Below are positions 12,362 to 30,516 of a stretch of DNA of 64,000 nt, piece after piece. The notes below the pieces were generated by a model that searched no databases, was not told where the DNA came from, and saw only the letters and a program-made list of their open reading frames with translations. Each line of letters begins with the position of its first letter. Position 1 is the first letter of the stretch. Origin of the DNA: Candidatus Saccharimonadales bacterium (GTDB lineage Bacteria; Patescibacteriota; Saccharimonadia; Saccharimonadales; JAXHNE01); NCBI GenBank assembly GCA_041600755.1, contig JBFIJL010000002.1:80850-144849 (forward strand), in the 5' to 3' direction. Position numbers and translations under genes: made by a program.

Positions 12362-12886
12362 ATGAAGCCAACGCTCTATTTAATGCTAGGATATCCTGGA
12401 GCCGGGAAAACCACGGTTGCCAAGCTGGTGTCTGAAATTACTGGTGCCGAGCACATCTGGGCGGATCATGAACGTAAAATTAAATACGGCCAGCCCAGCT
12501 ACTCGCAAACAGAAAATGATGAACTGTACAGTGAGCTAAACCACAGGACTGAATCTCTTCTAAGGGAAGGCAAAAGTGTAATGTTTGACACGGCTTTTAA
12601 TCATTATGAAGATCGCAAGAAACTTGAAAATATTGCGCGAACAGCCGGTGCAGACACAGTGATACTTTGGGTTCAGACACCGCGTGAGGTTGCCAAGAAA
12701 CGTGCAACAACAGACTTAGATGCTCAGCCCACCCGAGTTCTTAATGATCAAGAACCGCTACATCACGAACACTTCGAATACCTCAGCGACAAGCTCGAAG
12801 AGCCTCGCAACGACGAGACCGTCGTTATTCTGAACGGAACAGACATTACAAAAGAATACGTAAGCCAAAAACTTCGTGATGCTTAA
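12362..12886 (+). CDS. P-loop kinase-like ATP-binding protein (AAA_33/zeta-toxin-like fold)
   Basis: Walker A LMLGYPGAGKTT sits directly after the internal Met at 12362. The track ORF starts at 12248, but that N-terminal extension looks non-coding. Confidence 0.6.
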   Translation: MKPTLYLMLGYPGAGKTTVAKLVSEITGAEHIWADHERKIKYGQPSYSQTENDELYSELNHRTESLLREGKSVMFDTAFNHYEDRKKLENIARTAGADTVILWVQTPREVAKKRATTDLDAQPTRVLNDQEPLHHEHFEYLSDKLEEPRNDETVVILNGTDITKEYVSQKLRDA

Positions 12887-13454
12887 GCTCACAAAAAAAC
12901 AAAAACGAACCATTCTTTCGCTGCTCATTACACTTCTTCTTGGAGTTTTTGGCTATGCAATTACAGATGATGGCTTGCTTCAAAAGATTCCAGGCCCTGC
13001 ACCAGCAGGGACATACCGAATTGTAGATTTTGAAGACGGCGACACAATAACGATAGACATGAACGGAACTGAAGAACGAGTGAGATTTATTGGCATAGAC
13101 ACTCCGGAAACTAAAGACCCTCGCAAACCTGTCCAATGTTTCGGAAATGCAGCTAGCGCATTTACAAAGAACCTGATTGGCGACAATCCTGTGCGCTTAG
13201 AGCTTGACCCGCTCAGCAGCAACCGTGATCGCTATGATCGACTACTAAGATACATATATCTACCAGATGGCAGATTGGTGCAAGCCGAAATTCTAAAGGC
13301 TGGCTACGGGTTTGCATACACCAGCTTTCCGTTTACAAAGTCAGACGAATTTTTGACTTATCAGCGTGAGGCCCGAGAAGAAAACCGTGGCCTCTGGAGC
13401 CAATGCGCTCCGGAACAAAATCAATATGGTGGCTACACTAGCAACCCTGAATAG
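12876..13454 (+). CDS. Membrane-anchored/secreted thermonuclease (staphylococcal nuclease fold)
   Basis: N-terminal TM, then DGDTITI...VRFIGIDTPETKDPRKPVQCFG...RDRYDRLLRYIYL...GLW. Confidence 0.85.
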   Translation: MMLKLTKKQKRTILSLLITLLLGVFGYAITDDGLLQKIPGPAPAGTYRIVDFEDGDTITIDMNGTEERVRFIGIDTPETKDPRKPVQCFGNAASAFTKNLIGDNPVRLELDPLSSNRDRYDRLLRYIYLPDGRLVQAEILKAGYGFAYTSFPFTKSDEFLTYQREAREENRGLWSQCAPEQNQYGGYTSNPE

Positions 13455-15988: not shown

Positions 15989-16459
15989 ATGGGCAACAGA
16001 AAACGACGGCCACAAAACAATAGTCTGCGAAACCGTAGGGCTAGTTTTGACTATGCCCTGGAAGATTCGTTAGTAGCGGGGCTCGAGCTAACAGGAGCAG
16101 AAACAAAATCACTCCGGCATGGTCACGGCCACCTCAAAGGAGCGTACGTCACTACGCGTGATAATGAGCTTTACCTCATAAATGCCACCATAACCGGCAG
16201 CAATGCCGTACCCATTGCCGAGGATGACGTCACGCGAGCCAGAAAGCTGCTGGTCAAGCGCAAAGACATAGATGCGCTTCTTGCTGCAAAAAAGCAGGGA
16301 AGAAGCATTGTGCCTCTGGAAATCCTGAACCGTGGGAGATTTGTGAAGTTGCGTATCGCACTAGGCAAGGGCAAAAAGACCACCGACAAGCGCCAAACTA
16401 TCAAAAAACGAGAAGATAAAATTGCGTCCGAACGAGCAATAAAACATCACTCTCGGTAA
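15989..16459 (+). CDS. smpB: SsrA-binding protein
   Basis: NRRASFDYALEDSLVAGLELTGAETKSLR...LKGAYV...LLVKRKDI, plus a basic tail. Confidence 0.9.
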   Translation: MGNRKRRPQNNSLRNRRASFDYALEDSLVAGLELTGAETKSLRHGHGHLKGAYVTTRDNELYLINATITGSNAVPIAEDDVTRARKLLVKRKDIDALLAAKKQGRSIVPLEILNRGRFVKLRIALGKGKKTTDKRQTIKKREDKIASERAIKHHSR

Positions 16460-16558: not shown

Positions 16559-16633
16559 TCCGGGGTAGCTCAGCGGTAGAGCGGGAAGCTGTTAACTTCT
16601 AGGTCGCTGGTTCGAATCCAGTCCCCGGAGCCA
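16559..16633 (+). tRNA. tRNA-Asn (anticodon GTT), CCA encoded
   Basis: Hand-folded cloverleaf: acceptor TCCGGGG/CCCCGGA, D arm GCTC-AGCGGTA-GAGC, anticodon arm GGAAG-CTGTTAA-CTTCT, T arm GCTGG-TTCGAAT-CCAGT, then G-CCA. Confidence 0.9.
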
Positions 16634-16799
16634 AAAGATGAGAGTCAGGTGTTTGCCTGGCTCTTTTCTTTGATCTTCGATGATTCGAACCTTGGTCGAA
16701 AATAGCCTGTGGCTATTTGAGTTTTCCTTGCTTGGCCGAACGAGAAATTTCATATTTCAAGAGAGCATATTTAGCACGAATCCAGTCCCCGGAGCCAAG
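16627..16799. repeat. Module M1, copy a (173 bp), bounded at both ends by GGAGCCA of the tRNA-Asn 3' end
   Basis: Aligns over its full length with 26643-26815, with about 8 mismatches by eye. It ends with cgaatccagtccccggagcca, which matches the last 21 nt of the tRNA. Confidence 0.9.
16641..16668 (+). terminator. Hairpin terminator after tRNA-Asn
   Basis: AGAGTCAGG-tgtttg-CCTGGCTCT followed by TTTT. Confidence 0.5.
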
Positions 16800-16889
16800 A
16801 AAGAACCATAGTCTTATGACTGTGGTTTTTTCTATGTTCTGAGATTTGACTTGGACTAAGCGACGCTACAATTTATTGGAGCAAGTCGC

Positions 16890-16964
16890 GCCAGTTCGAT
16901 AATCCCCCGAAGACTATGTCTTCAAACGGGCGGATTATATCCCATAATCCAGTCCCCGGAGCCA
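16890..16964. repeat. Module M2, copy a (75 bp), ends in a tRNA-Asn 3'-end copy
   Basis: gccagtt..ataatcc-cccg-aagac-tat-gtctt-caaa-cggg-c-ggattat...aatccagtccccggagcca. The partner is at 27438-27513. It contains a nested imperfect hairpin. Confidence 0.85.
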
Positions 16965-17018
16965 AAATATGAAAGTCACCCTTGTGGTGGCTTTTGTATT
17001 TTGCCCCTGTGTTTGTGT

Positions 17019-17104
17019 TCGAACCAGGTTGCTCGGAACGAGCTGGTTCGATATTTTGAGTGAGTACGTGCAGTGCTTGCACGTGCGAAAGCTCGCCAAA
17101 ATAT
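17019..17104. repeat. Module M3, copy a (86 bp)
   Basis: TCGAACCAG-(15 nt)-CTGGTTCGA hairpin, then atattttgag...ttgcacgtgcgaaagctcgccaaaatat. The partner is at 28790-28875. GCTGGTTCGA equals the tRNA-Asn T-arm 5' half. Confidence 0.85.
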
Positions 17105-17348
17105 TTCTAAACCCTGTGTTCTGTCTATGATAAACTGCAAAATTACTGTACGAAAAGCGAGTTTCTAGACTATTCCGCAGATGAAACAGAAACACCCGTT
17201 AAAGCTACAGTACGTGTCTTATGCCAACAATATATAAGCCGTCTTAAAACTCTATGAGCTCCAGCAGTTAGCATTGAGCTGTTTAAAGAGTTTAATATAG
17301 GAATATTTAGTTGTATTATATAATCAAATAGTTTACTGAAAGAAACTT

Positions 17349-17831
17349 ATGAATATAACAAACTGGCTTTCCATTATAATAATCGTTCTAGTACTAACCC
17401 TTATACTCTTTATAATTCTGGTAAGTAACAAGCTATCAAGACGGTTATTGTACCTCCATAAACATATTAGTGATTCGGTTCAGTCTAAGTTTATAGATGT
17501 TAGTCCTAGCACCCAGAGTTTAGTGGAAGCTGCGATTGAAGTATGGCGATTAGAGAAACGGATTAGCAAGGTATCAAAAGACCTATCGGAAGACCAAAAC
17601 AAAGCATTTGAAAACTCTATTACAAAGCTGAATAGATTTCTTGATAAAAATGATATTACTTTTGCCGACTATACAGACCAAAAGTATAACGAAGGACTTA
17701 ACTTAGATGTTCTCAGTATTGATAAAGATAAGAATGTAGCTGAGAGCATTATTAAAGAAACCCACGAACCAGCCGTATTCCACAAAGGTCAGTTAATTAA
17801 AAAAGCAAAGGTAGTTGTCCTTGAAAAGTAG
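17349..17831 (+). CDS. Membrane-anchored GrpE-like protein (putative nucleotide exchange factor)
   Basis: N-terminal TM, a coiled coil, and a C-terminal ~50 aa (YNEGLNLDV...IIKETHEPAVFHKGQLIKKAKVVV) resembling the GrpE beta-domain pattern. It lies directly upstream of the Hsp70 gene and overlaps it. Confidence 0.45.
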   Translation: MNITNWLSIIIIVLVLTLILFIILVSNKLSRRLLYLHKHISDSVQSKFIDVSPSTQSLVEAAIEVWRLEKRISKVSKDLSEDQNKAFENSITKLNRFLDKNDITFADYTDQKYNEGLNLDVLSIDKDKNVAESIIKETHEPAVFHKGQLIKKAKVVVLEK

Positions 17832-20355
17832 AAATTCCAAATCAAAGAGTGATGATGGTGTCATTAACATCGGTATAGATTTAGGTACGACTAATTCAGC
17901 AATAGCAGTTAATTATGACGGCAAGACAGAGATAGTAAAGAATGGGGCTGGCAGCGACTACACCCCGTCAGTTTTCGGTATTGATAAGTCTGGGAACAAA
18001 ATTGTAGGCGTTAAGGCATATGACCGACTCTACAAATCATCATCTGATGAGGAAATACAGAATAATAAAGCCGAAGTGAAACGTTTAATGGGTACAGGTG
18101 AAACAATTCACTTTGATAGGATTAACGCTGATTTAACACCCGAAGAAGTATCCGCCGAGATTCTTAAAAGTCTTAAAGAAGATGCAACAAGAAAGTATAG
18201 TGATTTATCTTCTGTTGCTGCTGTTATTACGATTCCTGCACACTTTTCATCATTACAAGCAGAAGCTACTAAACGAGCAGGACAACTAGCTGGATTCAAG
18301 CACGTAGTACTACTGCAAGAACCTATTGCAGCAGCTATGGCATACGGTTTTGAAAAGTCTAATAATGAAAACTGGTTAGTATATGACTTGGGTGGTGGAA
18401 CTTTTGATGTGGCACTCATTTCTTCAAAGGACAGTAATTTAACTGTACTTGGTCATAGTGGCGATAACTTTCTAGGTGGAAAAGACTTTGACTTAAAAAT
18501 CATTGATGAAGTAATAAAACCTGAAATCTTAAATAAGTACAAACTAACTGATTTTGATAGAAGTTCAGAGAAGTATAGTAGTATTTTTGCACGACTAAAG
18601 GCTGCTGCTGAAACTGCAAAGATAGAACTATCTCAGTATGCAAAGACAACAATAGAAGTTGAAGACATTGGTAAAGATGAGAATGGTAACGAGATTTACG
18701 TTTCCATAAACTTGACTCGTGACCAATTTGAAGAAATCATTGCACCTCACATTACGAAAACTATTGAACTTGTAAAGAATACTCTCAAAGATTCTGGTAT
18801 TGCGCAAAGCTCTGTATCTAAGATTGTGCTGGTCGGTGGACCGACGCAGATCCCTTATTTACGAAAAGCACTTGAAGATGAGTTCAAAATAAAGGTAGAT
18901 GGTTCAATAGACCCACTTACAGTTGTGGCTAAAGGTGCAAGCGTTTTTGGACTTAGTCAAAGAGTCCCTACAGATATTCTCAATGAAGGACGAGAATCTG
19001 TTAAAGACGAAATGAATGCAACTTTAAATTACGATTCAATGACATCTGACGACGACCAGACCATTGCAGGAGTTGTTGAAGAATTAAGGGGTAGCGAATC
19101 AGAGTACTTTGTTCAGATTCAAGCAGATAGTGGTTTCTACACTAGTTCAAAAATTAAGCTCAAAGGCGGAAAGTTCTTTGACACAATAGCTATTGATAAG
19201 GGCAAAACAAATACCTATTGGCTTTACCTTTTTGATGACGCTGGAAACACAATACCAATGTTTCCTGACAGCTTTTCAGTAACTCACGGATTAACAGTTG
19301 CTGGTGCGCCTATTCCGCACGACGTGGGCGTTATATACGCTAAAAAAGGTTTTGATAGTGGCTTTCGGATGACCGAAGTCTGTGACCCCTATTTTGAAAA
19401 GAATAGCGTCCCGCCGTTGAAAAAGACCAATAATTACAAAACCGTCAAGAAACTTGAAAAAGGGAAAGAGAATAACTTACCTATCAAGGTTTATGAGGGT
19501 AACTCTACAAATCCTTCAAATAACGAAGTGATAACTACACTTCATATTGATGGCAAGAAGCTTCCTTATGATTTACCAGAAGCTACTGACGTAGATATTA
19601 CAATAAGTATTGATGAGTCACGAACAGTAGTCGTAGAAGCATATATACCGAGTATTGAGCTTACCTTAAATGCTAGGGCTGATACTTATAAGCAACAGGT
19701 TAATGTTTCTGGACTTGAAAAAGATTTAGCTGTACAAAAAGAACGTCTTAAATCAATAAAGAATAATGTTTCAGATGAAGAATATGAACAGCTTGAAAAT
19801 ACGATTGACGACTTAGGCACCAACATTAAGAACGCCAATCTTGATAATGATGATAAGAATAAAGCCGAAAGAGATATGCGTGAGTTAAAGACTAGCTTTG
19901 ATTCATTAGAGCAATCTAAAGAACTCCCGCAGTTGAAAGACGAGTTTAATTCAAAGATTGAAAATGCAAAAGAAATTATTGCTGAACTTGACGAAAGTGC
20001 CGAAAAGAAAGAGATTCTTACTGACTTGAAGGTCTTAGAAGATGAGGGCGAAAAAGCACTTAAAGCCACTGATAAGACAATGTTACTTCGTGTTAATGAG
20101 CAGATTGAGCAACTTACTTTCCGCTCTGTTTTCCAGAACCCTGCTGCCTGGGTGTTAATGCTAAATCAAATCAAAGACAAGCAGAATGAACTGTCTAATC
20201 AAACTGACGCAAATTACTTCATTGATAAAGCAGACAAAGCCGTTGATGAGGGTGATGTTGAAGAACTAAAAAGGTGCGTTCGCAATCTATTAGATTTACT
20301 TCCTAAAGAAACTCAAGATGAAATCAATTCAAGCATGTCAGGTATTACTAAGTAA
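17815..20355 (+). CDS. Atypical long Hsp70-family ATPase (846 aa)
   Basis: GIDLGTTNSAIAV, VKRLMG, AVITIPAHFSSLQAEATKRAGQLAGF, LLQEPIAAAMAYG, VYDLGGGTFDVALI, GDNFLGGKDFD, IVLVGGPTQIPYL. An SBD-beta-like segment (LPIKVYEGNS...DVDITISIDESRTVVVEAY) follows a ~150-aa insert. The C-terminus is a ~230-aa coiled-coil tail. TTG start. Confidence 0.9.
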   Translation: MSLKSRNSKSKSDDGVINIGIDLGTTNSAIAVNYDGKTEIVKNGAGSDYTPSVFGIDKSGNKIVGVKAYDRLYKSSSDEEIQNNKAEVKRLMGTGETIHFDRINADLTPEEVSAEILKSLKEDATRKYSDLSSVAAVITIPAHFSSLQAEATKRAGQLAGFKHVVLLQEPIAAAMAYGFEKSNNENWLVYDLGGGTFDVALISSKDSNLTVLGHSGDNFLGGKDFDLKIIDEVIKPEILNKYKLTDFDRSSEKYSSIFARLKAAAETAKIELSQYAKTTIEVEDIGKDENGNEIYVSINLTRDQFEEIIAPHITKTIELVKNTLKDSGIAQSSVSKIVLVGGPTQIPYLRKALEDEFKIKVDGSIDPLTVVAKGASVFGLSQRVPTDILNEGRESVKDEMNATLNYDSMTSDDDQTIAGVVEELRGSESEYFVQIQADSGFYTSSKIKLKGGKFFDTIAIDKGKTNTYWLYLFDDAGNTIPMFPDSFSVTHGLTVAGAPIPHDVGVIYAKKGFDSGFRMTEVCDPYFEKNSVPPLKKTNNYKTVKKLEKGKENNLPIKVYEGNSTNPSNNEVITTLHIDGKKLPYDLPEATDVDITISIDESRTVVVEAYIPSIELTLNARADTYKQQVNVSGLEKDLAVQKERLKSIKNNVSDEEYEQLENTIDDLGTNIKNANLDNDDKNKAERDMRELKTSFDSLEQSKELPQLKDEFNSKIENAKEIIAELDESAEKKEILTDLKVLEDEGEKALKATDKTMLLRVNEQIEQLTFRSVFQNPAAWVLMLNQIKDKQNELSNQTDANYFIDKADKAVDEGDVEELKRCVRNLLDLLPKETQDEINSSMSGITK

Positions 20356-22187
20356 TGGCTAACCTCTTTCGGGACAACGCATATAACGTGTTAGGTTTAG
20401 ATATATCTGTTGCACAGAAAGAGATAAATAAGCGTTCTAAAGAAATTGTTAATTTACTTCGTATTGATGAGGAATCTACGTATGAAATAGATATTTCTGT
20501 TGCAAAGCCAAAGCGTACAGAATCTACTGTAAAAGAAGCAGTCCAGAAACTAAGTTCACCTACTAAAAAGATTCAGGAGTACTTCTTCTGGTTTGATATT
20601 GAAAGTGATACAGACGAGAAAGCTTTGAAGCTACTTCAATCTGGAAGTATAGATGAAGCAATTCAACTTTGGGAAAAAGATTCTGGCAAAGAAACAGCAA
20701 CAGGGTTTGTAGCAAAAAAGAATCTTGCCATACTTTTTTCTGTTTTGCTTGTAGATAAAGGTCAAAAGAAATATCTTACTCAGTCAATATCTTGCTGGAA
20801 AGATTTAGTAATGTCAGAGAAGTTCTGGTCATATTTTGAAAAGATATATGCGCTTAATGACGAAGTAGGCACCAGTAGTTCTGCCATTAAAGATTTTGAG
20901 TCCAAAGTTACAGATGTATTATCGGACTTCTATACAGATATTAGCCAGACTAAGGGCGATAATAGTTTCTACTCTCTTTTCGCACAAGTATTCGACGTAA
21001 AGGGTCTGAAAATGCAGCGTGATGTATTGTCACCAATCTATGAAGCAATAAATGACACCTCTGAAAAACTTAGGAATCTTAATATAAGTGAAGACAACAT
21101 AGTCAGTCCAGAGGAAATCACTGAATTAAAACGACTCACAAAACTATTACAGACTAATTTTGACAAGTTAAAAGAACTTGGACTCTTCTCCGATAGTCAA
21201 TCAAAGACAATGAGAGATAAAGCAGCAGAAGCACTTAGAGCTGTAGCTTTGGACTTGCATAACAACTTGGGTGAGTCAGAAAAGCCAGTTGCCCTGTTTA
21301 ACATCGCTAGTAAGATTGCAGGTACGACCGCCACTATAAATAAAATAAACAAAGATATTGAAACCCTTCGTCAGAACAGGTCCGATGAAAAGATAATTAA
21401 ACCAATCAACGACTTACTTGAAGATGAGAAGTTCACAGACGCATTAGATTTGATTGAAAAGCGAATGGAGTCCCACAAGTCTAATAAGGAATTAATGGAT
21501 TTCCTGACCGCACGTTTGAAATGGGCTATTACTGGCATTGCAGCTAAAGACTATAAAGAAACAATGCAACAATTTACTAGTGGTCATTTTGCAAAAGCAG
21601 AACAAAACTTTAGCGGCCTAAGAGAGTTTTTATTAAGCTATATTCACTACTTTAACTTCAACCAGGAAGCAATAAACGAAGTCCTTGCAGAGATTGACCA
21701 GTTGACGGGCGACCCAAAAGCGTTAAACATTGATAATGTACAAAACTACAGGAATAAATTACTTGAGGGTACGGAAGAAACTTTCAAAGACTCTTTTGAG
21801 TCCTCATTAATTGTTTTCTTAGTTGATTGTGGGATTTACGGAAATATGGCTGCACACCTCCCAGCAATTAAACGCAAAAATACTATAAAGAAATGGCTTT
21901 GGTATATCGTTATAGGAATTATCTTGCTTGTAATTTTCGGTAGTAGCAGCGATTCAAGCGATACAAACTCAACTTCTGGCAGCAGTTCAAGTTCTAGTAG
22001 CTCAGCTTGGCAAATATGTTCCGATGAATACGATAGACTAAAGAATGAACTGGATAGTGTTGAAGCTTCTATGAGGCGGTATGAGTCGTTTGATGACGCA
22101 GATGGTTATAATGCCCTAGTTCCACGTCAAAATAGTCTCGTGCAGCTGGTGAATAACAAAGCGACAGAATGTAATGGATTAAGATAA
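20355..22187 (+). CDS. J-domain-like protein lacking HPD, with a C-terminal TM, Ser-rich linker and short extracytoplasmic Cys-containing tail
   Basis: N-terminus NAYNVLGLDISVAQKEINKRSKEIVNLL resembles J-domain helices I-II, but no HPD follows. TM is WLWYIVIGIILLVIFG, followed by SSSDSSDTNSTSGSSSSSSSS. The start overlaps the Hsp70 stop (TAATG). Confidence 0.6.
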   Translation: MANLFRDNAYNVLGLDISVAQKEINKRSKEIVNLLRIDEESTYEIDISVAKPKRTESTVKEAVQKLSSPTKKIQEYFFWFDIESDTDEKALKLLQSGSIDEAIQLWEKDSGKETATGFVAKKNLAILFSVLLVDKGQKKYLTQSISCWKDLVMSEKFWSYFEKIYALNDEVGTSSSAIKDFESKVTDVLSDFYTDISQTKGDNSFYSLFAQVFDVKGLKMQRDVLSPIYEAINDTSEKLRNLNISEDNIVSPEEITELKRLTKLLQTNFDKLKELGLFSDSQSKTMRDKAAEALRAVALDLHNNLGESEKPVALFNIASKIAGTTATINKINKDIETLRQNRSDEKIIKPINDLLEDEKFTDALDLIEKRMESHKSNKELMDFLTARLKWAITGIAAKDYKETMQQFTSGHFAKAEQNFSGLREFLLSYIHYFNFNQEAINEVLAEIDQLTGDPKALNIDNVQNYRNKLLEGTEETFKDSFESSLIVFLVDCGIYGNMAAHLPAIKRKNTIKKWLWYIVIGIILLVIFGSSSDSSDTNSTSGSSSSSSSSAWQICSDEYDRLKNELDSVEASMRRYESFDDADGYNALVPRQNSLVQLVNNKATECNGLR

Positions 22188-23257
22188 TGGCAACTCCAAG
22201 CAAACCAATACTTTATAACGGCTATGAAGTCAGCAAGGGCGTAACCATAGTAAACAGAATTGAAAAGATTTTCTTCACTGAGATTTACCGATTAAGTGAT
22301 GACAACTTTTTATATCTGTTTATCAACCTGAAAACTAGTGATGTTCGTGGTGCTAAAGACAGATTAATGAAAATCACTCATCAGGGTACTGAGTATCTTG
22401 GTATTTTAACTACTCAACACTCACAAGAACACGTTACCGAAATTATTGATGGTCTGACTCAATTAAGAGGTTTTGCTTCGGTAGCAGGCATGTCAGAGCT
22501 GAAACATTTGCTGATAAATGATGTCATACAACCCTTACAAAACCCAGAGAAATATGAGAAGTTTAAGTTATCTGTCCCTAATGGAATCCTGCTGTATGGT
22601 CCACCAGGGTGCGGTAAAACTTTTATTGTTCGCAAGCTAGCAGAGGAGCTTGGTTACAACTTTGTTGAAGTAAAACATTCGGACATTGCTTCTTCTTACA
22701 TTCACGGCACAGTTGCAAAGGTAGGAAGGCTGTTTGAAATGGCTAAGCTCAAAGCACCGTCAATTATTTTTATAGATGAAATTGAAGGCCTGATTCCCAA
22801 GCGTGAATCTATGGGTTCAGAGTCGCAACATAAGCAAGAAGAAATCAATGAGTTTCTTATGCAGCTTAATGACGCTGGCAAGAATAAGGTACTGGTTGTT
22901 GCAGCGACAAATAGACCGCATTTAATTGATACTGCTCTATTGAGGGCTGGACGAATGGACAAACGAATAATGGTATCGCCACCAGATTTAGAAGCGAGAG
23001 AAGAACTATTTAAGTTATTTTTATCAGAACGTCCTACCAAAGATATTGATTACAAACAACTGGCTAAACTGACAGAATACTTTGTTAGCGCAGATATAGA
23101 ACTAATTGTTACAGAATCAGCTAGGGGAGCTGTTTTCCAAGATTTAGAGTATATTACGCAAGAAGTTGTAGAAGCTACTATCAAATCAACTACCCCTTCA
23201 ATTCTAGAAGATGAAATTGAATACTACAAACAGTTTGCAAGTATGGAAAGAATCTAA
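22187..23257 (+). CDS. Classical-clade AAA+ ATPase (single AAA domain, Cdc48/FtsH-like) with a unique N-terminal domain
   Basis: Walker A GPPGCGKT, Walker B IIFIDEIE, and second region of homology ATNRPHLIDTALLRAGRMDKRI. TAATG overlap with the upstream gene. Confidence 0.9.
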   Translation: MATPSKPILYNGYEVSKGVTIVNRIEKIFFTEIYRLSDDNFLYLFINLKTSDVRGAKDRLMKITHQGTEYLGILTTQHSQEHVTEIIDGLTQLRGFASVAGMSELKHLLINDVIQPLQNPEKYEKFKLSVPNGILLYGPPGCGKTFIVRKLAEELGYNFVEVKHSDIASSYIHGTVAKVGRLFEMAKLKAPSIIFIDEIEGLIPKRESMGSESQHKQEEINEFLMQLNDAGKNKVLVVAATNRPHLIDTALLRAGRMDKRIMVSPPDLEAREELFKLFLSERPTKDIDYKQLAKLTEYFVSADIELIVTESARGAVFQDLEYITQEVVEATIKSTTPSILEDEIEYYKQFASMERI

Positions 23258-23916
23258 TGCAAGCGTGGAATAACTTTGAGTATAAGAGTTCTGTGCCTTT
23301 TTTTCGCTGGAATTACCCAGAAGACAAAAAGACTAACTTAGATAGCCTTTTCAAACGCAGGAGTTTACTTCCTGAACTATTCTTAGGACTTATACTCTTT
23401 GCTTCTTTTAATAGTTGGTCTGATACATCACAGAGCTTCGGTAATTTACTCATTTACGTATTGTGGGTACTAATAGCACTAGCTTTGTTTACGCTAGCAA
23501 TAGTAAATGGAAAGTCTTTGCTATTGCCAGATGTAATTACTCGTCCTTTAACACTTCTAATAACAGTTTTTCAGTTACTTGTAGCTATACAAACAGACAA
23601 TGCAGGGCATTTAGGTTCTGTCTTACTTGGAGGATTAATTGTAGGTGGTGTCCCATACATGCTATTTCAGATTTCTCAAGGTAAATGGATTGGTGGTGGG
23701 GATGTGAAGCTAGGTTTTGCTGCTGGATTATTGCTCGGCTGGAAAATTGGTTTATTGTGCCTAGGTATAGTATTTGCATTAACGCTGCTATCAATTTTAT
23801 TTGAAGTCGTAAGCAGCAAAGCTTCAAAAACTGAGTCACCATTTCGCATTGGAACTGGAACAATATGGGTTCTCTCTATTTTTCTAGCGTTATTTATTGG
23901 TCAGCAGATAATCTAG
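23257..23916 (+). CDS. A24-family (prepilin peptidase-like) membrane aspartyl protease, no methyltransferase domain
   Basis: Polytopic, with both catalytic-Asp motifs: LLLPDVITRPL and GGGDVKLGFAAGLLLG. TAATG overlap with the AAA+ gene. Confidence 0.7.
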   Translation: MQAWNNFEYKSSVPFFRWNYPEDKKTNLDSLFKRRSLLPELFLGLILFASFNSWSDTSQSFGNLLIYVLWVLIALALFTLAIVNGKSLLLPDVITRPLTLLITVFQLLVAIQTDNAGHLGSVLLGGLIVGGVPYMLFQISQGKWIGGGDVKLGFAAGLLLGWKIGLLCLGIVFALTLLSILFEVVSSKASKTESPFRIGTGTIWVLSIFLALFIGQQII

Positions 23917-24006
23917 CTAGACAACCGCCACTTAAAGTATGCGATATATCTGCATTGAGAAAATTACATTATTCGTACTATACTTTAATAAAATGAGTGA
24001 CAGTAT

Positions 24007-24867
24007 ATGAAAGAGACTTTATTCGGCATATTTATAATCGTTTGGTTGGCGATTATTGTTCTATGGGTTATAGCCTTGATAAAACCCAAAGCGAAAGTAT
24101 TTAATACGCTACAGTCAAGATTTAATGGGCGTAAAGGATTATCAAAACTCTTTGCGCCTTTATTTATTATCTCGTTTATATTTCTAGCCGTGTTTTCACC
24201 TCCTTTAGCTGTTGAGCTCAAAGGACTTAATCTGGAAGCTGACCAAGAAGTTATCACCGAGCAATTTACTATAGAAGGAGAGGTTTCTGGTAGCTTTAAG
24301 ACGTTTTTAGTTAATAATGAAGCAATTACTTTAGAAAAAGGTAGGTTTTCAAAGACTCTTAATTTAAAGCCAGGCGATAATAAGGTTAAAATCTTGCTAA
24401 CCTATGTTGACGAGGAAGACAAAGAAGTTGAAGCATTTAATAAGACGCACAACATATACTTTGATTACGAGGGAATGCTATATGCTCGTGAACTAGAAAA
24501 GGACAAGCAAGCAGAAGATGAGTTAAAACGAAAGCTTGCTGAAATACCAAGGTATGAAACTGTACGTAAGACAGATATAGAAAACGGCTTCTCTGCAATT
24601 ATATATGTTGAAGGCAATATGGAAGACTATCAGATAACTAATATTGCTAAAGATATTGAAAATAATAATTCTGACACGAAGAACATCTCGGTGCTTATGT
24701 TTAGTAAGACACAAAAAACAGAGGTTGAGGCTGTGCTTGAAAATAGTACCCCTTCTGAACTCATTACATATATCCGAGCAAATTATGAGAAACGTGACAG
24801 TAATAAGCAGCTATTTTGGTTCCCTAAGGGCGCAGAGGACGAGAAGCTTGCATTGGAGATACAATGA
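24007..24867 (+). CDS. Hypothetical membrane-anchored protein
   Basis: N-terminal TMs, then a 200-aa Lys/Glu-rich region. No recognisable motif. Confidence 0.55.
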   Translation: MKETLFGIFIIVWLAIIVLWVIALIKPKAKVFNTLQSRFNGRKGLSKLFAPLFIISFIFLAVFSPPLAVELKGLNLEADQEVITEQFTIEGEVSGSFKTFLVNNEAITLEKGRFSKTLNLKPGDNKVKILLTYVDEEDKEVEAFNKTHNIYFDYEGMLYARELEKDKQAEDELKRKLAEIPRYETVRKTDIENGFSAIIYVEGNMEDYQITNIAKDIENNNSDTKNISVLMFSKTQKTEVEAVLENSTPSELITYIRANYEKRDSNKQLFWFPKGAEDEKLALEIQ

Positions 24868-25700
24868 TTAAAAAACTCAAATACATAGCGTTATTACTTA
24901 TATTATTAACAGTTCCTCAACAAGTTCTGGCTCACCCAGGAAGAACAGATTCCAGTGGCGGACATAACTGTCGCACTGGTCCATGTGCTGGAACATACCA
25001 CTATCATAATGGGGGCGGTTCAACAGCACCTTCGTCACCCGCACCCACGCCAGCCCCTACACCCGCACCCACGCCAGCCCCACAGCCAGTGACTCAACCA
25101 AAACCAAAGAAAACAATTGAGACTATAAGTGGCTTAGTTTCGGTAAGTGCAGCGAATACGCTCTGGGTTGATTTAATTCTTGAGGAAGTATCTAGAAGCA
25201 AAACCGCAACAAACTATACGACAGTTAATCCAGTCACCACAGCCACGAGTAGAATCACTGGTGCAACTCAAGAACCGAAAGTTAATGGAGACCAGAAGTT
25301 TTATTACGTGAGTGAAGTGACGGACGGTGATACGATAAAAGTAGTTGTTGACGGCAGAATTGAAAAGGTTAGGCTGCTTGGTATAGATACACCAGAAACA
25401 AAAGACCCCCGTAAGCCAGTGCAGTGCTTTGGCATGGAAGCTAGTAAGTACGCAGCTACGTTGATGCTCAATAAATATGTACGTTTAGAGCTTGATAAAT
25501 CTCAAGGGGACAGAGACAGGTACAACAGACTGCTTAGGTATGTATATCTTGAGAACGGTGCGGAGGTTAATGCCGAGCTTGTAAAGCAGGGTTATGCACT
25601 AGCATATCTTCGTTATCCAGTTGCACAAACTGAAACTTACAAACAACTACAATCAAAAGCAGAAAGTCAGAGTCTTGGGCTATGGAGTGCTTGCAGATGA
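24864..25700 (+). CDS. Secreted YHYH-domain / Pro-Thr linker / thermonuclease (SNase) fusion
   Basis: Signal peptide ...QQVLAHPGRTDSSGGHNCRTGPCAGTYHYHNGG (YHYH motif), (PAPT)n linker, then DGDTIKV...VRLLGIDTPETKDPRKPVQCFG...RDRYNRLLRYVYL...GLW. Confidence 0.85.
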   Translation: MIKKLKYIALLLILLTVPQQVLAHPGRTDSSGGHNCRTGPCAGTYHYHNGGGSTAPSSPAPTPAPTPAPTPAPQPVTQPKPKKTIETISGLVSVSAANTLWVDLILEEVSRSKTATNYTTVNPVTTATSRITGATQEPKVNGDQKFYYVSEVTDGDTIKVVVDGRIEKVRLLGIDTPETKDPRKPVQCFGMEASKYAATLMLNKYVRLELDKSQGDRDRYNRLLRYVYLENGAEVNAELVKQGYALAYLRYPVAQTETYKQLQSKAESQSLGLWSACR

Positions 25701-26367: not shown

Positions 26368-26642
26368 GTTGATAAAATCTTTATAGGTAACTATTTAGAA
26401 ACACAGGTGTTTTATATTTAGGCACTTTGCCGATGTTCTATTAGAAAGAGCGTTTTAATATCGCAGTTGAAAGCGCAAAACAGAATATACCTATATATAT
26501 TAGTTTTTGCGTTTTTAAATACTATCCCATATAGGTTCAAAGCCTTGTGCGTCAGGTTCAAAATAACGCCTAGCATTATCTACTTCACGGGCTAAGCGTA
26601 CAATAGCGTTGTAATACTTAGTGCGGAACATGTACGGTAGAG

Positions 26643-26815
26643 GGAGCCAAAAGATGAGAGTCAGGTGTTTGCCTGGCTCTTTTCTTTTATCTTCGATGAT
26701 TCGAACCTTGGTCGAAAATAGCCTGTGGCTATTTGAGTTTTCACTGCTTGACCGAACGATAAATTTCATATTTAGAGAGAGCATATTTAGCACGAATCCA
26801 GTCCCCGGAGCCAAG
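26643..26815. repeat. Module M1, copy b (173 bp)
   Basis: See 16627-16799. It also ends in cgaatccagtccccggagcca. Confidence 0.9.
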
Positions 26816-26934
26816 CCGTAAAAGACAAAGTCAGAACTGTGAAAATGGCAGAGATTTTTTGATACCCAGACTAAGATTGAAACTACTAAATTCTTATGCT
26901 TGCATTTCAGTAAAACTAGATAAATAATTTCATT

Positions 26935-27291
26935 ATGCCAGTTTACTATTCTGTTGAAATAACTAAACACGATGACCCAGATGCTGAAGCCAGTTTTTTA
27001 ATTCGTCCACCAATAAGCTTTCTCAGCCCGAAGACTAAGGGAGAGCTGGTGGATACACTTCGAAGTCTTATTAGGAACCGATTGGGCGATAATGAGGACG
27101 ATGATTTACGGCTCGCAATTACCCATAATCTTGCAGATGACTCAGCAACAGTTGGACGTGCACATTTTCGTGGGCTTCAACTTGCTACTGGAGTAGTGGT
27201 TCTGCAACAGGCCTTAGAGCTTGGACTAAATGGCACCAATGCGTTTGTTAGTCCAACTAGCCCCATGAGAAGCAAGTCAGCATTTGATTAG
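26935..27291 (+). CDS. Hypothetical 118-aa protein (cassette between M1b and M2b)
   Basis: ORF with no recognisable motif. It is followed by ...gttgtgagccaaa and a hairpin (gtccgtcc-tgaaaa-gggcgg-ttttt). Confidence 0.45.
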   Translation: MPVYYSVEITKHDDPDAEASFLIRPPISFLSPKTKGELVDTLRSLIRNRLGDNEDDDLRLAITHNLADDSATVGRAHFRGLQLATGVVVLQQALELGLNGTNAFVSPTSPMRSKSAFD

Positions 27292-27437
27292 GCACACTCC
27301 AAGTCAGCCTTAATTATAGTTATAACTTCCTCATTGTTGTGAGCCAAATAAAGTCCGTCCTGAAAAGGGCGGTTTTTATTTGGCTTTGTGAATTGAGCTG
27401 GATTCAAGCGACTTGCCAACCCGTTGGCGATAGTCGT

Positions 27438-27513
27438 GCCAGTTTAATAATCCACCGAAGCCTATGTCTTCAAACGGGCGGATTATACCCGAGTAATCCA
27501 GTTTTCGGAGCCA
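27438..27513. repeat. Module M2, copy b (76 bp, more degenerate)
   Basis: gccagttt.ataatccaccgaagcctatgtcttcaaacgggcggattata...taatccagttttcggagcca. Confidence 0.85.
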
Positions 27514-27586
27514 AGCCTAAGAACATAACCAACAGGGAAAGGACGCAATTATTTTATTGAGAGGTAGTAAACACTTAACTCGTTGA

Positions 27587-28318
27587 CTATTTATCGTACC
27601 CGGCACCGATCTTAGGTTTTTGAATATAGCTTTTTACCTTTGATGGATCAACTAATAAATCGTTAGTAAGAATTTCAACATAGTTTTTTACAAAACCTGG
27701 AGTGCCAGAAATAGCTATCTCTGAGTCCCCTGAAACAACATTTTCAAGTTGCTTTGATTTAATTTTATTTGGAGAGACTACTTCTTCGAGGCTTACATTC
27801 TCTAATTCTTTGGTCATTTTTTCTATTTCTTTACCAAAGATAAAATCCTCATCTTTGTTGGCATAGAATATCGATATGTTTGTACCTCGCCTATCCTCAT
27901 ATTCATCCTTAAGTATTGAGTAGAGTGGGGCCACCCCAATGCCCCCTACGATAAAGACCTGGTGTTTATCGTAGTCTTGTATCTTGAAATTATCCATCAT
28001 GAATGACGGGCCAATTGCCTTTATTTTGTCTCCTGCATTTAATTTGAATAATGCTTTCTTAAACGAACTAGAATGTTCGCCAAAATACCTGGTTGAAAAT
28101 GCTAGGTTCTCTTCATGTGGAGCAGATGTAATTGAAAAGACTCTTATGCCTCCTCTTTTATCTTTACTTTTGTGCTTTAAGCTAAATATAAAGTGCTGTC
28201 CCGCTTGATATTCTTGTCTTGGCTTTGTAAACCTAAAGGTATAAACGTTTTGCGCTTCTTGTTTTTTATCAATAAATTCAATCGTGTCGGATTTTAAACC
28301 TTGAATGATATTTTTCAT
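27587..28318 (-). CDS. Ferredoxin-NADP reductase-like FAD/NAD(P)-binding oxidoreductase
   Basis: RVFSITSAP (RxYS-type FAD motif) and VGGIGVAPLYSIL (NAD(P) motif). The start is set at internal Met 28318 so the operator-like palindromes stay intergenic. Confidence 0.7.
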   Translation of the reverse strand: MKNIIQGLKSDTIEFIDKKQEAQNVYTFRFTKPRQEYQAGQHFIFSLKHKSKDKRGGIRVFSITSAPHEENLAFSTRYFGEHSSSFKKALFKLNAGDKIKAIGPSFMMDNFKIQDYDKHQVFIVGGIGVAPLYSILKDEYEDRRGTNISIFYANKDEDFIFGKEIEKMTKELENVSLEEVVSPNKIKSKQLENVVSGDSEIAISGTPGFVKNYVEILTNDLLVDPSKVKSYIQKPKIGAGYDK

Positions 28319-28359
28319 ATTTACCCCATGCTTTCTTTTTAGCGAGAATACTATTTCCA

Positions 28360-28401
28360 CTTTACTTAGTAAAGTCTATTGTACGGCTTTACTAAGTAAA
28401 G
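28360..28401. promoter_or_regulatory. Two copies of a 15-bp near-palindrome in the divergent oxidoreductase/HxlR intergenic region
   Basis: CTTTACTTAGTAAAG at 28360-28374 and its reverse complement CTTTACTAAGTAAAG at 28387-28401. Between and beside them are GTCTATTGTAC / GTACAATAGAC. Confidence 0.45.
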
Positions 28402-28413
28402 TACAATAGACTT

Positions 28414-28728
28414 ATGGAAAGTTTGTGTAAAAAAGACACTCCTGAGCACATAAAAGAAGCTCTATTGATACTAGGTGATAAATGGTCAGCTCTTATATTG
28501 AAGCAACTTCACCATAGCCCTCATAGGTATTCTGAAATGGAGGAGAAACTAAGCGGAATAAGTAGCCGAACTCTAGCAAAACGCTTAGATATGCTGATTG
28601 AGAAAGATATTATCCAAAAAAGTACATTCAACAGTGCCAAACATCATGTTTATGAACTAACAAAAAAGGGTAGAGCCATGGATGAAATAATTCATGCAAT
28701 GGCCCAATGGGGAAAGAAGTTTAGCTAG
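28414..28728 (+). CDS. HxlR-family winged-helix transcriptional regulator
   Basis: LILGDKWSALILKQL...RYSEMEEKLSGISSRTLAKRLDMLIEKDII. 104 aa. Confidence 0.85.
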   Translation: MESLCKKDTPEHIKEALLILGDKWSALILKQLHHSPHRYSEMEEKLSGISSRTLAKRLDMLIEKDIIQKSTFNSAKHHVYELTKKGRAMDEIIHAMAQWGKKFS

Positions 28729-28789
28729 CAAGAGTTCTAGGAGTTCGCAGCTATAACTTTCTCTATCGTTGTGAGCCGAAAGAAAGGAG

Positions 28790-29278: not shown

Positions 29279-29306
29279 TACCCAGAGCCAAGACATAATA
29301 AACCGG

Positions 29307-30448: not shown

Positions 30449-30516
30449 ACTAAACTGTCTTTTTTATGCAAGCACAATTACTGTAGCAATGCATGAAGCA
30501 ACTACAAGAAAACAAA

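What the first reader, a model, noticed from the sequence alone, without database searches (positions are those of the whole stretch)
17815..20355. Hsp70 with a large insert between the NBD and the substrate-binding domain, plus a long coiled-coil tail
The nucleotide-binding domain ends near ...VVAKGASVFG. The recognisable SBD-beta-like segment (LPIKVYEGNS...ITISIDESRTVVVEAY) appears only about 150 residues later.

The usual helical lid is replaced by ~230 residues of Glu/Lys/Asp/Leu-rich heptad-like sequence. The canonical EEVD or Gly-rich tails are absent.

This architecture differs from the DnaK, HscA and HscC lengths that I know.
Basis: partly seen in the sequence, partly recalled or inferred. 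Interest (0 to 1): 0.55.

Follow-up and report, generated by a model that had tools for sequence, protein, structure and literature searches.

The report
Unnamed Hsp70 class with own co-chaperones
The gene encodes a real, widespread but unnamed kind of Hsp70 chaperone with an extra Ig-like domain and an enlarged lid. It sits in one operon with its own GrpE-like, J-like and Cdc48-like partners on a mobile island, and in other bacteria the same gene set lies among anti-phage genes.

Summary
The 846-aa ORF at 17815-20355 is real. Its nucleotide-binding domain (NBD, res 19-379) is a catalytically intact Hsp70 ATPase.

The insert is real but shorter than reported. It is a roughly 100-residue Ig/FN3-like beta-sandwich (about res 381-483), followed by a conserved linker-like motif, PDSFxITHGLxV. 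A complete substrate-binding beta-domain (SBD-beta) starts at about res 500, not at LPIKVYEG. Profile comparison with the DnaK SBD gives 98.5% probability.

The Glu/Lys/Asp/Leu-rich tail is predicted as ten short helices. That reads as an enlarged lid, not a long coiled coil.

The architecture defines a large, unnamed Hsp70 clade, separate from DnaK, HscA and HscC. The C-terminal half alone finds 943 clusters at 50% identity, across many phyla.

The gene sits in a tightly packed operon with three partners:
- a membrane-anchored GrpE-like exchange factor;
- a tail-anchored J-like protein that lacks the HPD motif;
- a single-domain Cdc48-D2-like AAA+ ATPase.

This gene set recurs from Patescibacteria to E. 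coli. In the window it lies on a 10-kb island at tRNA-Asn. Elsewhere it neighbours Gabija, Zorya, RADAR and restriction genes, or is Tn7-like cargo.

Most likely it is a self-contained, mobile Hsp70/AAA+ protein-remodelling system, possibly acting in defence. I found no description of it in the literature I could search.

The parts
16559..16633 (+). tRNA-Asn (GTT), the integration site of the island that carries the operon
   Evidence: ARAGORN and Rfam tRNA at 68.6 bits. Its 3' end, AATCCAGTCCCCGGAGCCA, recurs at 16779, 16946 and 26795.
16627..16799 (.). Left copy of a 173-nt direct repeat (att-like) that overlaps the 3' end of the tRNA
   Evidence: the repeat finder family D1: 96% identity to 26643-26815, spacing 10016 nt.
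26643..26815 (.). Right copy of the 173-nt direct repeat, which closes the roughly 10-kb island
   Evidence: GC falls from about 0.44 to 0.37 inside the island.
17349..17831 (+). 160-aa GrpE-like nucleotide-exchange factor with an N-terminal transmembrane helix; overlaps the Hsp70 start by 17 nt
   Evidence: Family profile against a GrpE profile: hhalign 91.6%, E 8e-7, over res 82-160. Four homologues carry Pfam PF01025 and one is named GrpE by its source. Hydropathy peak at res 1-31. Sits directly upstream of the Hsp70 in 17 of 20 loci, plus Shewanella, Sinorhizobium and E. coli.
17815..20355 (+). 846-aa Hsp70 of the unnamed long class (the finding)
17869..18951 (+). NBD, res 19-379, with catalytic residues intact
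   Evidence: Pfam HSP70 E 3.7e-83. D22, K89, E169, D191, T196 and D198 are invariant in 84 family members. The equivalent of DnaK R167 is V/P/I/E/A.
18955..19263 (+). Inserted Ig/FN3-like beta-sandwich, res 381-483
   Evidence: No similarity to the DnaK NBD or SBD profiles (0.2%). AF2 predicts six strands, with pLDDT about 91-96 per 10-residue block in the full model and 87.6 for the domain modelled alone. Foldseek finds only generic FN3, SoxZ and PKD sandwiches, E 4e-4 to 1e-2, TM 0.4-0.6. Conserved across phyla.
19264..19311 (+). Conserved linker-like motif, P484-D-S-F-x-I-T-H-G-L-x-V...P499, in the place of the DnaK VLLLD linker
   Evidence: Column counts: P484 73/84, F487 62/84, G492 79/84, P499 71/84. 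Mean conservation is 0.55, equal to the NBD.
19312..19674 (+). SBD-beta, res 500-620, eight strands
   Evidence: hhalign against the DnaK SBD: 98.5%, E 3.9e-15. Pocket positions are kept hydrophobic: V506 (DnaK I401), Y541 (F426), L555 (V436), I557 (I438).
19690..20304 (+). Enlarged alpha-helical lid, res 626-830, nine of the ten predicted helices
   Evidence: AF2 DSSP assignment. Weak match to DnaK lid helices, 35%, E 4e-4. Composition and heptad test.
20305..20352 (+). C-terminal tail. The conserved LLP (L828-L829-P830) lies at the end of the lid; the tail ends in SGI[T/R][K/R].
   Evidence: L828 75/84, P830 70/84, G843 51/84, I844 56/84. Residues 844-845 form a beta-bridge in the model.
20355..22187 (+). 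610-aa J-like protein: an N-terminal J-like domain without HPD, a helical middle, and a transmembrane helix at about 510-533. Its start overlaps the Hsp70 stop.
   Evidence: hhalign against J domains: 93.3%, E 2.8e-7. PDB profile hits to DnaJ J domains at E about 0.01. No HPD in any member. Hydropathy. Found next to the Hsp70 in 16 of 20 loci by HMM, and by eye in Vibrio, Polaromonas, Sinorhizobium and E. coli.
22187..23257 (+). 356-aa single-domain classical AAA+ ATPase (Cdc48/VAT D2-like); its start overlaps the previous stop
   Evidence: Pfam AAA E 6e-37 plus AAA_lid_3. Best PDB matches are the D2 domains of VAT, Cdc48 and p97, E 1e-83. Scores below the IetA cut-off, 121 against 510 bits. 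Linked to the Hsp70 in L001, L008, L087, L088, L090, L091, L098, L099 and L100.
23257..23916 (+). 219-aa polytopic membrane protein, prepilin-peptidase (A24)-like; the last gene of the overlapping gene string. It is conserved with the module only within Saccharibacteria.
   Evidence: Pfam Peptidase_A24, 31.5 bits against a 26.5 cut-off. Same position in L098, where the Hsp70 is 63% identical. Absent from other lineages.

Best explanation
The ORF encodes an active member of a distinct, widespread and so far unnamed Hsp70 class of about 815-850 aa.

Its layout, from N to C terminus:
- a canonical ATPase NBD;
- an inserted Ig-like beta-sandwich;
- a conserved hydrophobic linker-like motif (PDSFxITHGLxV);
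- a complete peptide-binding SBD-beta;
- a lid of roughly double the usual size;
- a conserved C-terminal SGI[T/R][K/R] tail.

It does not work with the housekeeping co-chaperones. It is made from one tightly packed operon together with a GrpE-type exchange factor, a J-like targeting protein and a Cdc48-D2-like AAA+ ATPase. The exchange factor is anchored in the membrane by an N-terminal helix. The J-like protein has lost the HPD motif and is tail-anchored here.

Proposed mechanism (inferred):
1. The J-like protein recruits the Hsp70, and perhaps a client, to the inner face of the membrane.
2. The Hsp70 clamps an extended peptide segment in an ATP-driven cycle, which the GrpE-like factor resets.
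3. The bound protein is handed to, or pulled apart by, the AAA+ hexamer.
4. The Ig-like insert sits beside the linker and the J-binding region. It serves as the docking surface that replaces the lost HPD/R167 contact.

The whole module is accessory and mobile. Because of the company it keeps in other genomes, its most likely role is in conflict with phages or other mobile elements.

What is shown: the domain architecture, catalytic conservation, operon partners, distribution and genomic context. What is inferred: the client, the hand-over to the AAA+, the role of the insert and the defence function.
For: Architecture:
- AF2 full model: pLDDT 90.9, pTM 0.85.
- The model aligns with full-length DnaK and BiP, with target-normalised TM 0.81-0.82 and rmsd about 4 A to BiP structures.
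- SBD-beta homology to DnaK: 98.5%, E 4e-15. The insert is unrelated to DnaK.
- The insert is an Ig/FN3-like sandwich.

Activity:
- All six catalytic NBD residues are invariant in 84 sequences.
- The hydrophobic pocket residues are kept.

Distinct class:
- Scores fall below the NCBIfam cut-offs for DnaK (277 against 822 bits) and HscA (243 against 620).
- The family forms its own clade in a neighbour-joining tree of the NBD.
- 943 representative clusters share the C-terminal half, and nearly all are 815-850 aa.
- The layout is conserved at about 20% identity across phyla.

Partners:
- GrpE-like: hhalign 91.6%, and Pfam PF01025 on homologues.
- J-like without HPD.
- The DnaK R167 equivalent is lost.
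- AAA+ resembles Cdc48 D2.
- Start and stop codons of the five genes overlap.
- Linkage across 20 loci: GrpE-like 17, J-like 16, AAA+ 8.

Mobility and defence context:
- 173-nt att-like repeats at tRNA-Asn, and a GC drop.
- Sinorhizobium plasmid: next to a Type IIG restriction-modification enzyme and GajA/GajB.
- Polaromonas plasmid: next to ZorA.
- Shewanella and Aeromonas: first cargo genes of a Tn7-like element.
- CPR loci: next to SIR2 plus Mrr, or flanked by serine recombinases with PLD and HEPN genes.
- E. coli HeN100: 1 of 5426 genomes, in an island with RdrB, a DptF remnant, an integrase remnant and IS elements.
Against: - No experiment bears on function.
- The defence-island association is a set of striking examples, not an enrichment statistic with a control.
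- The module has no match in PADLOC-DB 2.0 apart from generic AAA+ similarity. It has no obvious toxic effector such as a nuclease, pore or NADase.
- No integrase lies inside the window's island.
- Within Patescibacteria the module is very common and well conserved, which would also fit a lineage-wide physiological role.
- The J-like and GrpE-like assignments rest on profile matches of moderate strength (about 92-93%; PDB E about 0.01).
- The membrane anchors seen here are absent from the proteobacterial versions, so membrane tethering is not universal.
- I could not inspect model coordinates, so the contacts of the insert and of the C-terminal tail are unverified.
Confidence: 0.6

Rival explanations
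1. A housekeeping, lineage-adapted chaperone machine for membrane or envelope biogenesis. Examples would be assembly or quality control of pili, secretion systems or membrane proteins, rather than a conflict system.
For: - Both co-chaperones are membrane-anchored in the window.
- A prepilin-peptidase-like membrane protein is the fifth gene of the operon, here and in L098.
- T4SS genes follow the module in a Levybacteria locus.
- Peptidoglycan-binding and SH3 proteins are neighbours in several proteobacterial and metagenomic loci.
- The module is very common in Patescibacteria.
- It parallels E. coli HscC with its tail-anchored partners DjlB and DjlC (PMC8215388).
Against: - The distribution outside Patescibacteria is sporadic and mobile: 1 of 5426 E. 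coli genomes, plasmids, Tn7-like cargo and a tRNA island.
- The A24-like gene is not conserved outside Saccharibacteria.
- The membrane anchors are not universal.
Confidence: 0.25
2. An Hsp110-like helper of the housekeeping DnaK. It would act as a nucleotide-exchange factor or disaggregation enhancer through NBD-NBD contacts, as proposed in general for bacterial 'DnaK derivates'.
For: - The size (846 aa) and the extended lid recall Hsp110.
- This idea is proposed generically in the 2026 FEBS J review (PMC13580251).
Against: - It has its own GrpE-like factor and its own J-like partner in the same operon.
- It has an intact catalytic site and an intact peptide pocket.
- The insert lies before the SBD-beta, not inside it as in Hsp110 (the Hsp110 layout is from my own knowledge).
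Confidence: 0.08
3. An RNA-binding, ATPase-weak Hsp70-like module like CnuD of the CoCoNuT systems, which would target a nuclease system to RNA.
For: CoCoNuT type III systems combine Hsp70-like NBD/SBD proteins with helical repeats, and sometimes with Cdc48-like AAA+ ATPases, in defence loci (PMC11090510).
Against: - CnuD has degenerate Walker-like motifs, whereas here all catalytic residues are invariant.
- No McrB/McrC, HEPN or cold-shock-domain partner lies in the operon.
- Dedicated GrpE-like and J-like partners imply a real chaperone cycle.
Confidence: 0.04
4. An artefact: a gene fusion, a frameshift or misassembly, or an 'insert' created by misalignment.
For: None beyond the unusual length.
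Against: - The same length and domain order appear in hundreds of independent assemblies, including complete plasmids and an E. coli chromosome.
- The insert is a confidently folded, conserved domain.
Confidence: 0.01

Closest known systems
DnaK (canonical bacterial Hsp70) with DnaJ and GrpE
   Same: The NBD fold and all catalytic residues, an eight-stranded SBD-beta with a hydrophobic pocket, a helical lid, a GrpE-type exchange factor and a J-fold partner.
   Different: - NBD identity is only 34.7%, and scores fall far below the DnaK equivalog cut-offs.
- About 100 extra residues form an Ig-like domain in front of the linker.
- VLLLD is replaced by PDSFxITHGLxV.
- The lid is about twice as long.
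- The R167 equivalent is lost, and the partner J-like domain has no HPD.
- The co-chaperones are dedicated and co-transcribed.
HscC with the tail-anchored J proteins DjlB and DjlC (E. coli)
   Same: A specialised, non-essential Hsp70 paralogue encoded next to its own membrane-anchored J-type partners and to Sel1-repeat proteins (PMC8215388). One family member's J-like partner also carries Sel1 repeats.
   Different: - HscC is short (556 aa), has no inserted domain and has a shortened lid.
- Its partners keep the HPD motif, and it has no GrpE.
- It falls in a separate clade in the NBD tree, with 34% identity.
Hsp110 / Grp170 (eukaryotic long Hsp70 relatives)
   Same: A long Hsp70-derived protein with extra sequence and an extended helical C-terminus.
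   Different: - Hsp110 carries its insertion inside the SBD-beta and acts as an exchange factor for Hsp70 (my own knowledge).
- Here the insertion is a separate Ig-like domain between the NBD and the linker.
- This protein has its own exchange factor.
HSP70-GrpE-DnaJ/TPR theme of the GAP1-N2 GTPase conflict systems (Kaur et al. 2020, PMC7159879)
   Same: A dedicated HSP70 plus GrpE plus a DnaJ- or TPR-bearing partner. The setting is membrane-proximal and conflict-associated, with kinases and SH3 or peptidoglycan-binding proteins nearby. Compare kinases in L082, L083 and L087 and SH3 or PG-binding neighbours.
   Different: - No GAP1 or other GTPase, tubulin or FNIII-repeat protein was seen in the window or in the loci examined.
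- That paper describes its partner as a DnaJ domain, whereas here the J-like domain lacks HPD.
- I could not test whether the Hsp70s are the same family, because no sequences are held.
DnaK-ClpB bi-chaperone disaggregase
   Same: An Hsp70 cycle coupled to a hexameric AAA+ unfoldase.
   Different: The AAA+ here is a single-domain Cdc48-D2-type ATPase with a short N-domain, not a two-ring Hsp100 with an M-domain. The coupling is only inferred from operon linkage.
CoCoNuT CnuD (Hsp70-like NBD/SBD plus HEAT-like repeats)
   Same: An Hsp70-like protein with a helical C-terminal extension in defence loci, sometimes alongside Cdc48-like ATPases.
   Different: CnuD has degenerate ATPase motifs and works with McrBC-like GTPase and nuclease partners. 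None of that applies here.

Membership tests
Hsp70 superfamily (PF00012) | Actin-like NBD with the catalytic Asp/Lys/Glu/Asp/Thr/Asp set | tested here: met
   Pfam E 3.7e-83 over res 19-378. D22, K89, E169, D191, T196 and D198 are invariant in 84 members.
Hsp70 superfamily (PF00012) | Conserved hydrophobic interdomain linker (DnaK 389-VLLLD-393) directly after the NBD | tested here: inconclusive
   The canonical motif is absent. A different conserved hydrophobic motif (PDSFxITHGLxV, res 484-495) lies just before the SBD-beta, but is separated from the NBD by the insert. Its function as a linker is untested.
Hsp70 superfamily (PF00012) | Beta-sandwich substrate-binding domain with a hydrophobic pocket | tested here: met
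   hhalign 98.5%, E 3.9e-15. Eight strands in the AF2 model. Pocket positions conserved.
Hsp70 superfamily (PF00012) | Alpha-helical lid after the SBD-beta | tested here: met
   Ten helices, res 631-839, with a weak profile match to the DnaK lid. About twice the usual size.
Hsp70 superfamily (PF00012) | Partner J domain with an HPD motif, contacting the R167 region of the NBD | tested here: not met
   The partner has a J-like fold signal, but no HPD in any member examined. The R167 equivalent is V/P/I/E/A.
DnaK (TIGR02350 / NF001413 equivalogs) | Score above the curated whole-protein cut-off | tested here: not met
   277.5 against 822.55 bits, and 277.4 against 648 bits. Only the NBD matches.
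HscA | Equivalog score; isc operon context with HscB, IscU and Fdx | tested here: not met
   234.9 against 708.55 bits for the HscA equivalog TIGR01991, and 243.4 against 620 for the subfamily model NF003520. No isc genes in the operon. Separate from HscA in the tree.
HscC | Length of about 550-580 aa, shortened lid, HPD-bearing DjlB/DjlC partners, no exchange factor | tested here: not met
   846 aa with an enlarged lid, a GrpE-like partner and an HPD-less J-like partner. NBD 34% identical to E. coli HscC and not sister to it in the tree.
Hsp110/Grp170 | Insertion within the SBD-beta; eukaryotic; acts as an exchange factor for Hsp70 | tested here: not met
   The insertion lies before the SBD-beta. 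Exchange-factor activity is not testable here.
Known anti-phage systems (PADLOC-DB 2.0) | Match of the signature proteins to a system model | tested here: not met
   No hit for the Hsp70, the GrpE-like or the J-like protein. The AAA+ hits IetA models generically, but scores 121.5 bits against a 510-bit cut-off for NCBIfam IteA, and no IetS protease is present.
Defence-island-associated accessory system (operational criterion) | Recurrent location next to known defence genes or on mobile elements in unrelated genomes | tested here: inconclusive
   Seven independent examples, but no genome-wide enrichment statistic or control.

The most novel reading that the evidence does not exclude
The four-gene set is a previously unrecognised chaperone-based immune or exclusion system. 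It comprises the long Hsp70 with its Ig-like insert, a GrpE-like factor, an HPD-less J-like adaptor and a Cdc48-like AAA+ ATPase. In this reading a dedicated Hsp70 senses or captures a phage or mobile-element protein, or a membrane perturbation. The AAA+ ATPase then unfolds that protein or a host target to block infection. The system spreads on islands, plasmids and Tn7-like elements from Patescibacteria to E. coli.
Probability: 0.3. Interest if true: 0.85.

Novelty: new variant of a known kind. Interest (0 to 1): 0.68.

Why it matters
Textbook accounts list three bacterial Hsp70 types: DnaK, HscA and HscC. A 2026 review calls the other 'DnaK derivates' unexplored dark matter (PMC13580251). 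This finding gives one such class a clear definition: a fixed architecture, its own exchange factor, a J-like partner that has dispensed with the HPD motif thought indispensable, and an AAA+ partner.

A domain inserted exactly at the allosteric linker, together with loss of both sides of the canonical J-Hsp70 contact, makes it a natural test of how Hsp70 allostery can be rewired.

The module's repeated presence among anti-phage genes and on mobile elements makes a chaperone-based defence mechanism directly testable. Its occurrence in an E. coli strain and in Vibrio and Shewanella plasmids means this can be done in standard hosts.

Tried and rejected
- PADLOC scan of the operon: nothing for the Hsp70, GrpE-like or J-like proteins.
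- tblastn of the C-terminal half against 50,697 phage genomes: no match.
- Rfam and ARAGORN on the 700-nt gap between tRNA-Asn and the operon: only the tRNA.
- Eight full-text literature searches and the two most relevant reviews: no description of this class. They turned up only thematically related systems, namely the GAP1-N2 HSP70/GrpE theme and CoCoNuT CnuD.
- Supplementary data of Kaur 2020 and of the 2026 review are not held, so family identity with their Hsp70s could not be checked.
- The genome-contig scan with the full-length alignment mostly returned ordinary dnaK, because the chosen patterns were NBD motifs. Only 9 of 80 loci were family members.
- The coiled-coil reading of the tail is rejected.
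- The A24-like, 286-aa, SNase and 208-aa downstream genes are not core parts of the system. They are not conserved with the module outside close relatives.
- The IetA assignment of the AAA+ is rejected.
- The CPR-trained J-like HMM missed the proteobacterial J-like proteins, which were recognised only by motif inspection.

Full report
**The object.** ORF listing shows one uninterrupted 846-codon frame at 17815-20355 (+). Its TTG start overlaps the end of the upstream gene by 17 nt. NCBI calls an 844-aa product from the second TTG, at 17821. Pfam, NCBIfam and PDB sequence searches recognise only residues 19-379, as an Hsp70 nucleotide-binding domain (NBD). Pfam gives HSP70 E 3.7e-83. DnaK models score about 277 bits against cut-offs of 648-1019. 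Nothing in those libraries covers the remaining 467 residues.

**Is the architecture real?** Yes.
- A word-indexed search returned more than 120 clusters of full-length homologues, 835-847 aa and 53-94% identical. All are from Patescibacteria (Saccharibacteria, Levybacteria and others). They are labelled only 'Hsp70 family protein', 'molecular chaperone DnaK' or 'hypothetical protein'.
- An exhaustive HMMER search with the C-terminal 467 residues alone found 943 representative clusters at E<=1e-3, and 566 at E<=1e-10. Nearly all are 815-850 aa with the match at about 370-830, so the layout is the same.
- Family members occur in Gracilibacteria, Pseudonocardia, Actinophytocola, Byssovorax, Myxococcales, Reyranella, Clostridium, Muribaculaceae and other Bacteroidota.
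- They also occur on plasmids of Vibrio, Shewanella, Aeromonas, Polaromonas, Sinorhizobium, Aminobacter and Pseudomonas, and in one E. coli chromosome.
- The C-terminal halves align end to end at about 20% identity.

**Domain anatomy.** AlphaFold2 with an 84-sequence alignment gave a confident model, pLDDT 90.9 and pTM 0.85.
- NBD: res 19-379.
- A six-stranded beta domain: about res 400-491.
- Eight further strands: res 504-619.
- Ten helices of 9-24 residues: res 631-839.

Foldseek aligns the whole model with full-length DnaK, BiP and Ssb. The best superpositions are on BiP structures, with target-normalised TM 0.81-0.82 and rmsd about 4 A. From my own knowledge, these represent the domain-docked, ATP-like state.

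Profile-profile comparison against 64 canonical DnaKs harvested from the fetched loci gives three results.
- Res 499-625 are homologous to the DnaK SBD-beta: 98.5%, E 3.9e-15. PIPHDVGV aligns with TPLSLGIE, and LPIKVYEG aligns with the DnaK VxIHVLQG strand.
- Res 380-498 match nothing in DnaK (0.2%).
- The helical region matches the DnaK lid only weakly (35%, E 4e-4).

Modelled alone, the insert folds confidently (pLDDT 87.6). It resembles only generic Ig/FN3/PKD/SoxZ sandwiches, with E 4e-4 to 1e-2 and TM 0.4-0.6.

Between the insert and the SBD-beta lies a motif as conserved as the NBD: P484-D-S-F-x-I-T-H-G-L-x-V...P499. It occupies the place of the DnaK VLLLD linker.

The tail is indeed 46% Glu/Lys/Asp/Leu. 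It has no window with strong heptad hydrophobicity, and it breaks into short helices. It is therefore an enlarged bundle-type lid, not a coiled coil. The protein ends in a conserved LLP...SGI[T/R][K/R] motif. Residues 844-845 form a beta-bridge in the model, but I could not see what they pair with.

**Is it likely active?**
- All catalytic NBD positions are invariant in 84 members: D22, K89, E169, D191, T196 and D198, equivalent to DnaK D8, K70, E171, D194, T199 and D201.
- The peptide-pocket positions stay hydrophobic: V506, Y541, L555 and I557, equivalent to I401, F426, V436 and I438.
- In contrast, the equivalent of DnaK R167 is V/P/I/E/A. From established DnaK-DnaJ work, R167 is the residue that contacts the HPD motif of the J domain.

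**Family placement.** NBD identity to E. coli DnaK, HscC and HscA is 34.7%, 34.0% and 33.5%. In a neighbour-joining tree of the NBD, the family is a single clade apart from all three. This is a quick distance tree, not a rigorous phylogeny.

**The operon.** Five genes, 17349-23916, have overlapping or abutting start and stop codons. A promoter-like site lies at 17292-17319, and the next strong one only at 23955-23984.
- Upstream 160-aa protein. It has an N-terminal transmembrane helix. Its C-terminal 80 residues match a GrpE profile at 91.6%, E 8e-7. Four homologues carry Pfam GrpE, and one is named GrpE by its source.
- Downstream 610-aa protein. It has no Pfam hit. Its N-terminal 75 residues match J domains: hhalign 93.3%, E 2.8e-7, and PDB profile hits to several DnaJ J domains at E about 0.01. 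No member has an HPD; the position reads Y-x-x-D. A conserved L-x-x-P-x-x-R...FWF signature follows. A transmembrane helix lies at about 510-533.
- 356-aa classical AAA+ ATPase. It is closest to the D2 domains of VAT, Cdc48 and p97, E 1e-83. It scores below the IetA cut-off.
- 219-aa A24-like membrane protein. It is kept with the module only within Saccharibacteria.

Across 20 loci with a family member, HMMs find the GrpE-like gene directly upstream in 17, the J-like gene adjacent in 16, and the AAA+ in 8. The proteobacterial and E. coli versions have the same four proteins. Ser/Thr kinases, one of them fused to the AAA+, replace or join the AAA+ in three loci.

**Genomic setting.** In the window the operon lies on a low-GC stretch, 0.37 against 0.44, immediately after tRNA-Asn. 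A 173-nt direct repeat that includes the 3' end of the tRNA (16627-16799) recurs at 26643-26815. The copies are 96% identical and 10,016 nt apart, and they bracket the operon and four more genes. Further partial copies lie downstream. No integrase lies inside.

Elsewhere the module has these neighbours:
- a Type IIG restriction-modification enzyme and Gabija GajA/GajB on a Sinorhizobium plasmid (GajA E 4.5e-275);
- ZorA on Polaromonas pPNAP01;
- TnsABCDE of a Tn7-like element in Shewanella and Aeromonas plasmids, where it forms the first cargo genes;
- SIR2 and an Mrr-like enzyme in one CPR genome;
- two large serine recombinases with PLD, HEPN-like and Panacea genes in another;
- RADAR RdrB, a DptF remnant, an integrase remnant and IS elements in E. 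coli HeN100, the only one of 5,426 complete E. coli genomes that has the module.

No phage genome carries it. These are examples, not a statistic.

**Interpretation.** The evidence supports a self-contained Hsp70 cycle: ATPase, peptide clamp, dedicated exchange factor and dedicated J-type adaptor, genetically coupled to an AAA+ unfoldase. In this organism it is tethered to the membrane. The insertion of a folded domain at the allosteric linker coincides with loss of both HPD and its NBD contact. This suggests that partner docking has moved to a new surface, for which the Ig-like domain is the obvious candidate. That step is inference.

The mobile, patchy distribution and the neighbours point to a conflict-related role. 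I put that at roughly 40-45%, within an overall 0.6 for the explanation as stated. A lineage-adapted envelope-biogenesis role is the main rival, at about 0.25.

**Known or new?** Eight literature searches and two reviews gave no description of this class.
- Mayer's 2021 review lists only DnaK, HscA and HscC.
- The 2026 FEBS J review calls other derivates 'dark matter'.
- The closest published themes are the HSP70-GrpE-DnaJ/TPR neighbourhoods of the GAP1-N2 GTPase systems and CoCoNuT CnuD. Neither shares the defining partners found here.
- The library lacks most subscription journals, so prior description elsewhere cannot be excluded.

I rate the finding a new variant of a known kind, with interest 0.68.

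Noticed in passing
window 16615-17111 and 26631-28882: Besides the 173-nt repeat pair, pieces of the tRNA-Asn-proximal 480 nt recur at 27406-27490 (80%), 27495-27528 and 28790-28882 (86%). This suggests a tandem array of small islets integrated one after another at tRNA-Asn.
   Followed up: partly
window 26823-26884, 29300-29361, 30510-30571: A 62-nt intergenic element occurs in three copies, 66-90% identical. Its nature is unknown.
   Followed up: no
window 12876-13454 and 24864-25700: Two staphylococcal-nuclease-type paralogues share 50% identity over 131 aa. The one inside the island also has a YHYH domain and a short Pro/Thr/Ala repeat, encoded by the tandem DNA repeats at 25021-25081. A similar SNase gene lies near the module in a Levybacteria locus.
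   Followed up: partly
window 15989-16459: From its sequence the ORF looks like SmpB; it was not scanned. It lies just before tRNA-Asn, and no tmRNA gene was found in the window by ARAGORN, or in 15.8-17.4 kb by Rfam.
   Followed up: partly
L081 131-2716 and 4811-7294; L082 521-5155: Some genomes carry two long Hsp70 paralogues in one cluster (861 and 827 aa). One metagenomic member is 1544 aa, with a second HSP70 hit in an N-terminal extension of about 700 aa.
   Followed up: no
L001 (Gracilibacteria): The homologous four-gene module is intact only when translated with genetic code 25 (UGA as Gly). Table 11 breaks it into fragments.
   Followed up: yes
L100 (E. coli HeN100, NZ_CP044443.1, 4115537-4122320): A complete copy of the module lies in an E. 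coli chromosome island with RdrB, a DptF remnant, an antirestriction gene and IS elements. It could serve as an experimental entry point.
   Followed up: partly
L097 (Sinorhizobium medicae plasmid): The Hsp70 gene of this family is split by an ISNCY transposase in this plasmid. The module can evidently be lost without harm.
   Followed up: no
window 32904-35006 (-): A 700-aa protein with bacterial Ig-like (Big_7) domains lies outside the island. It is probably a surface protein.
   Followed up: no
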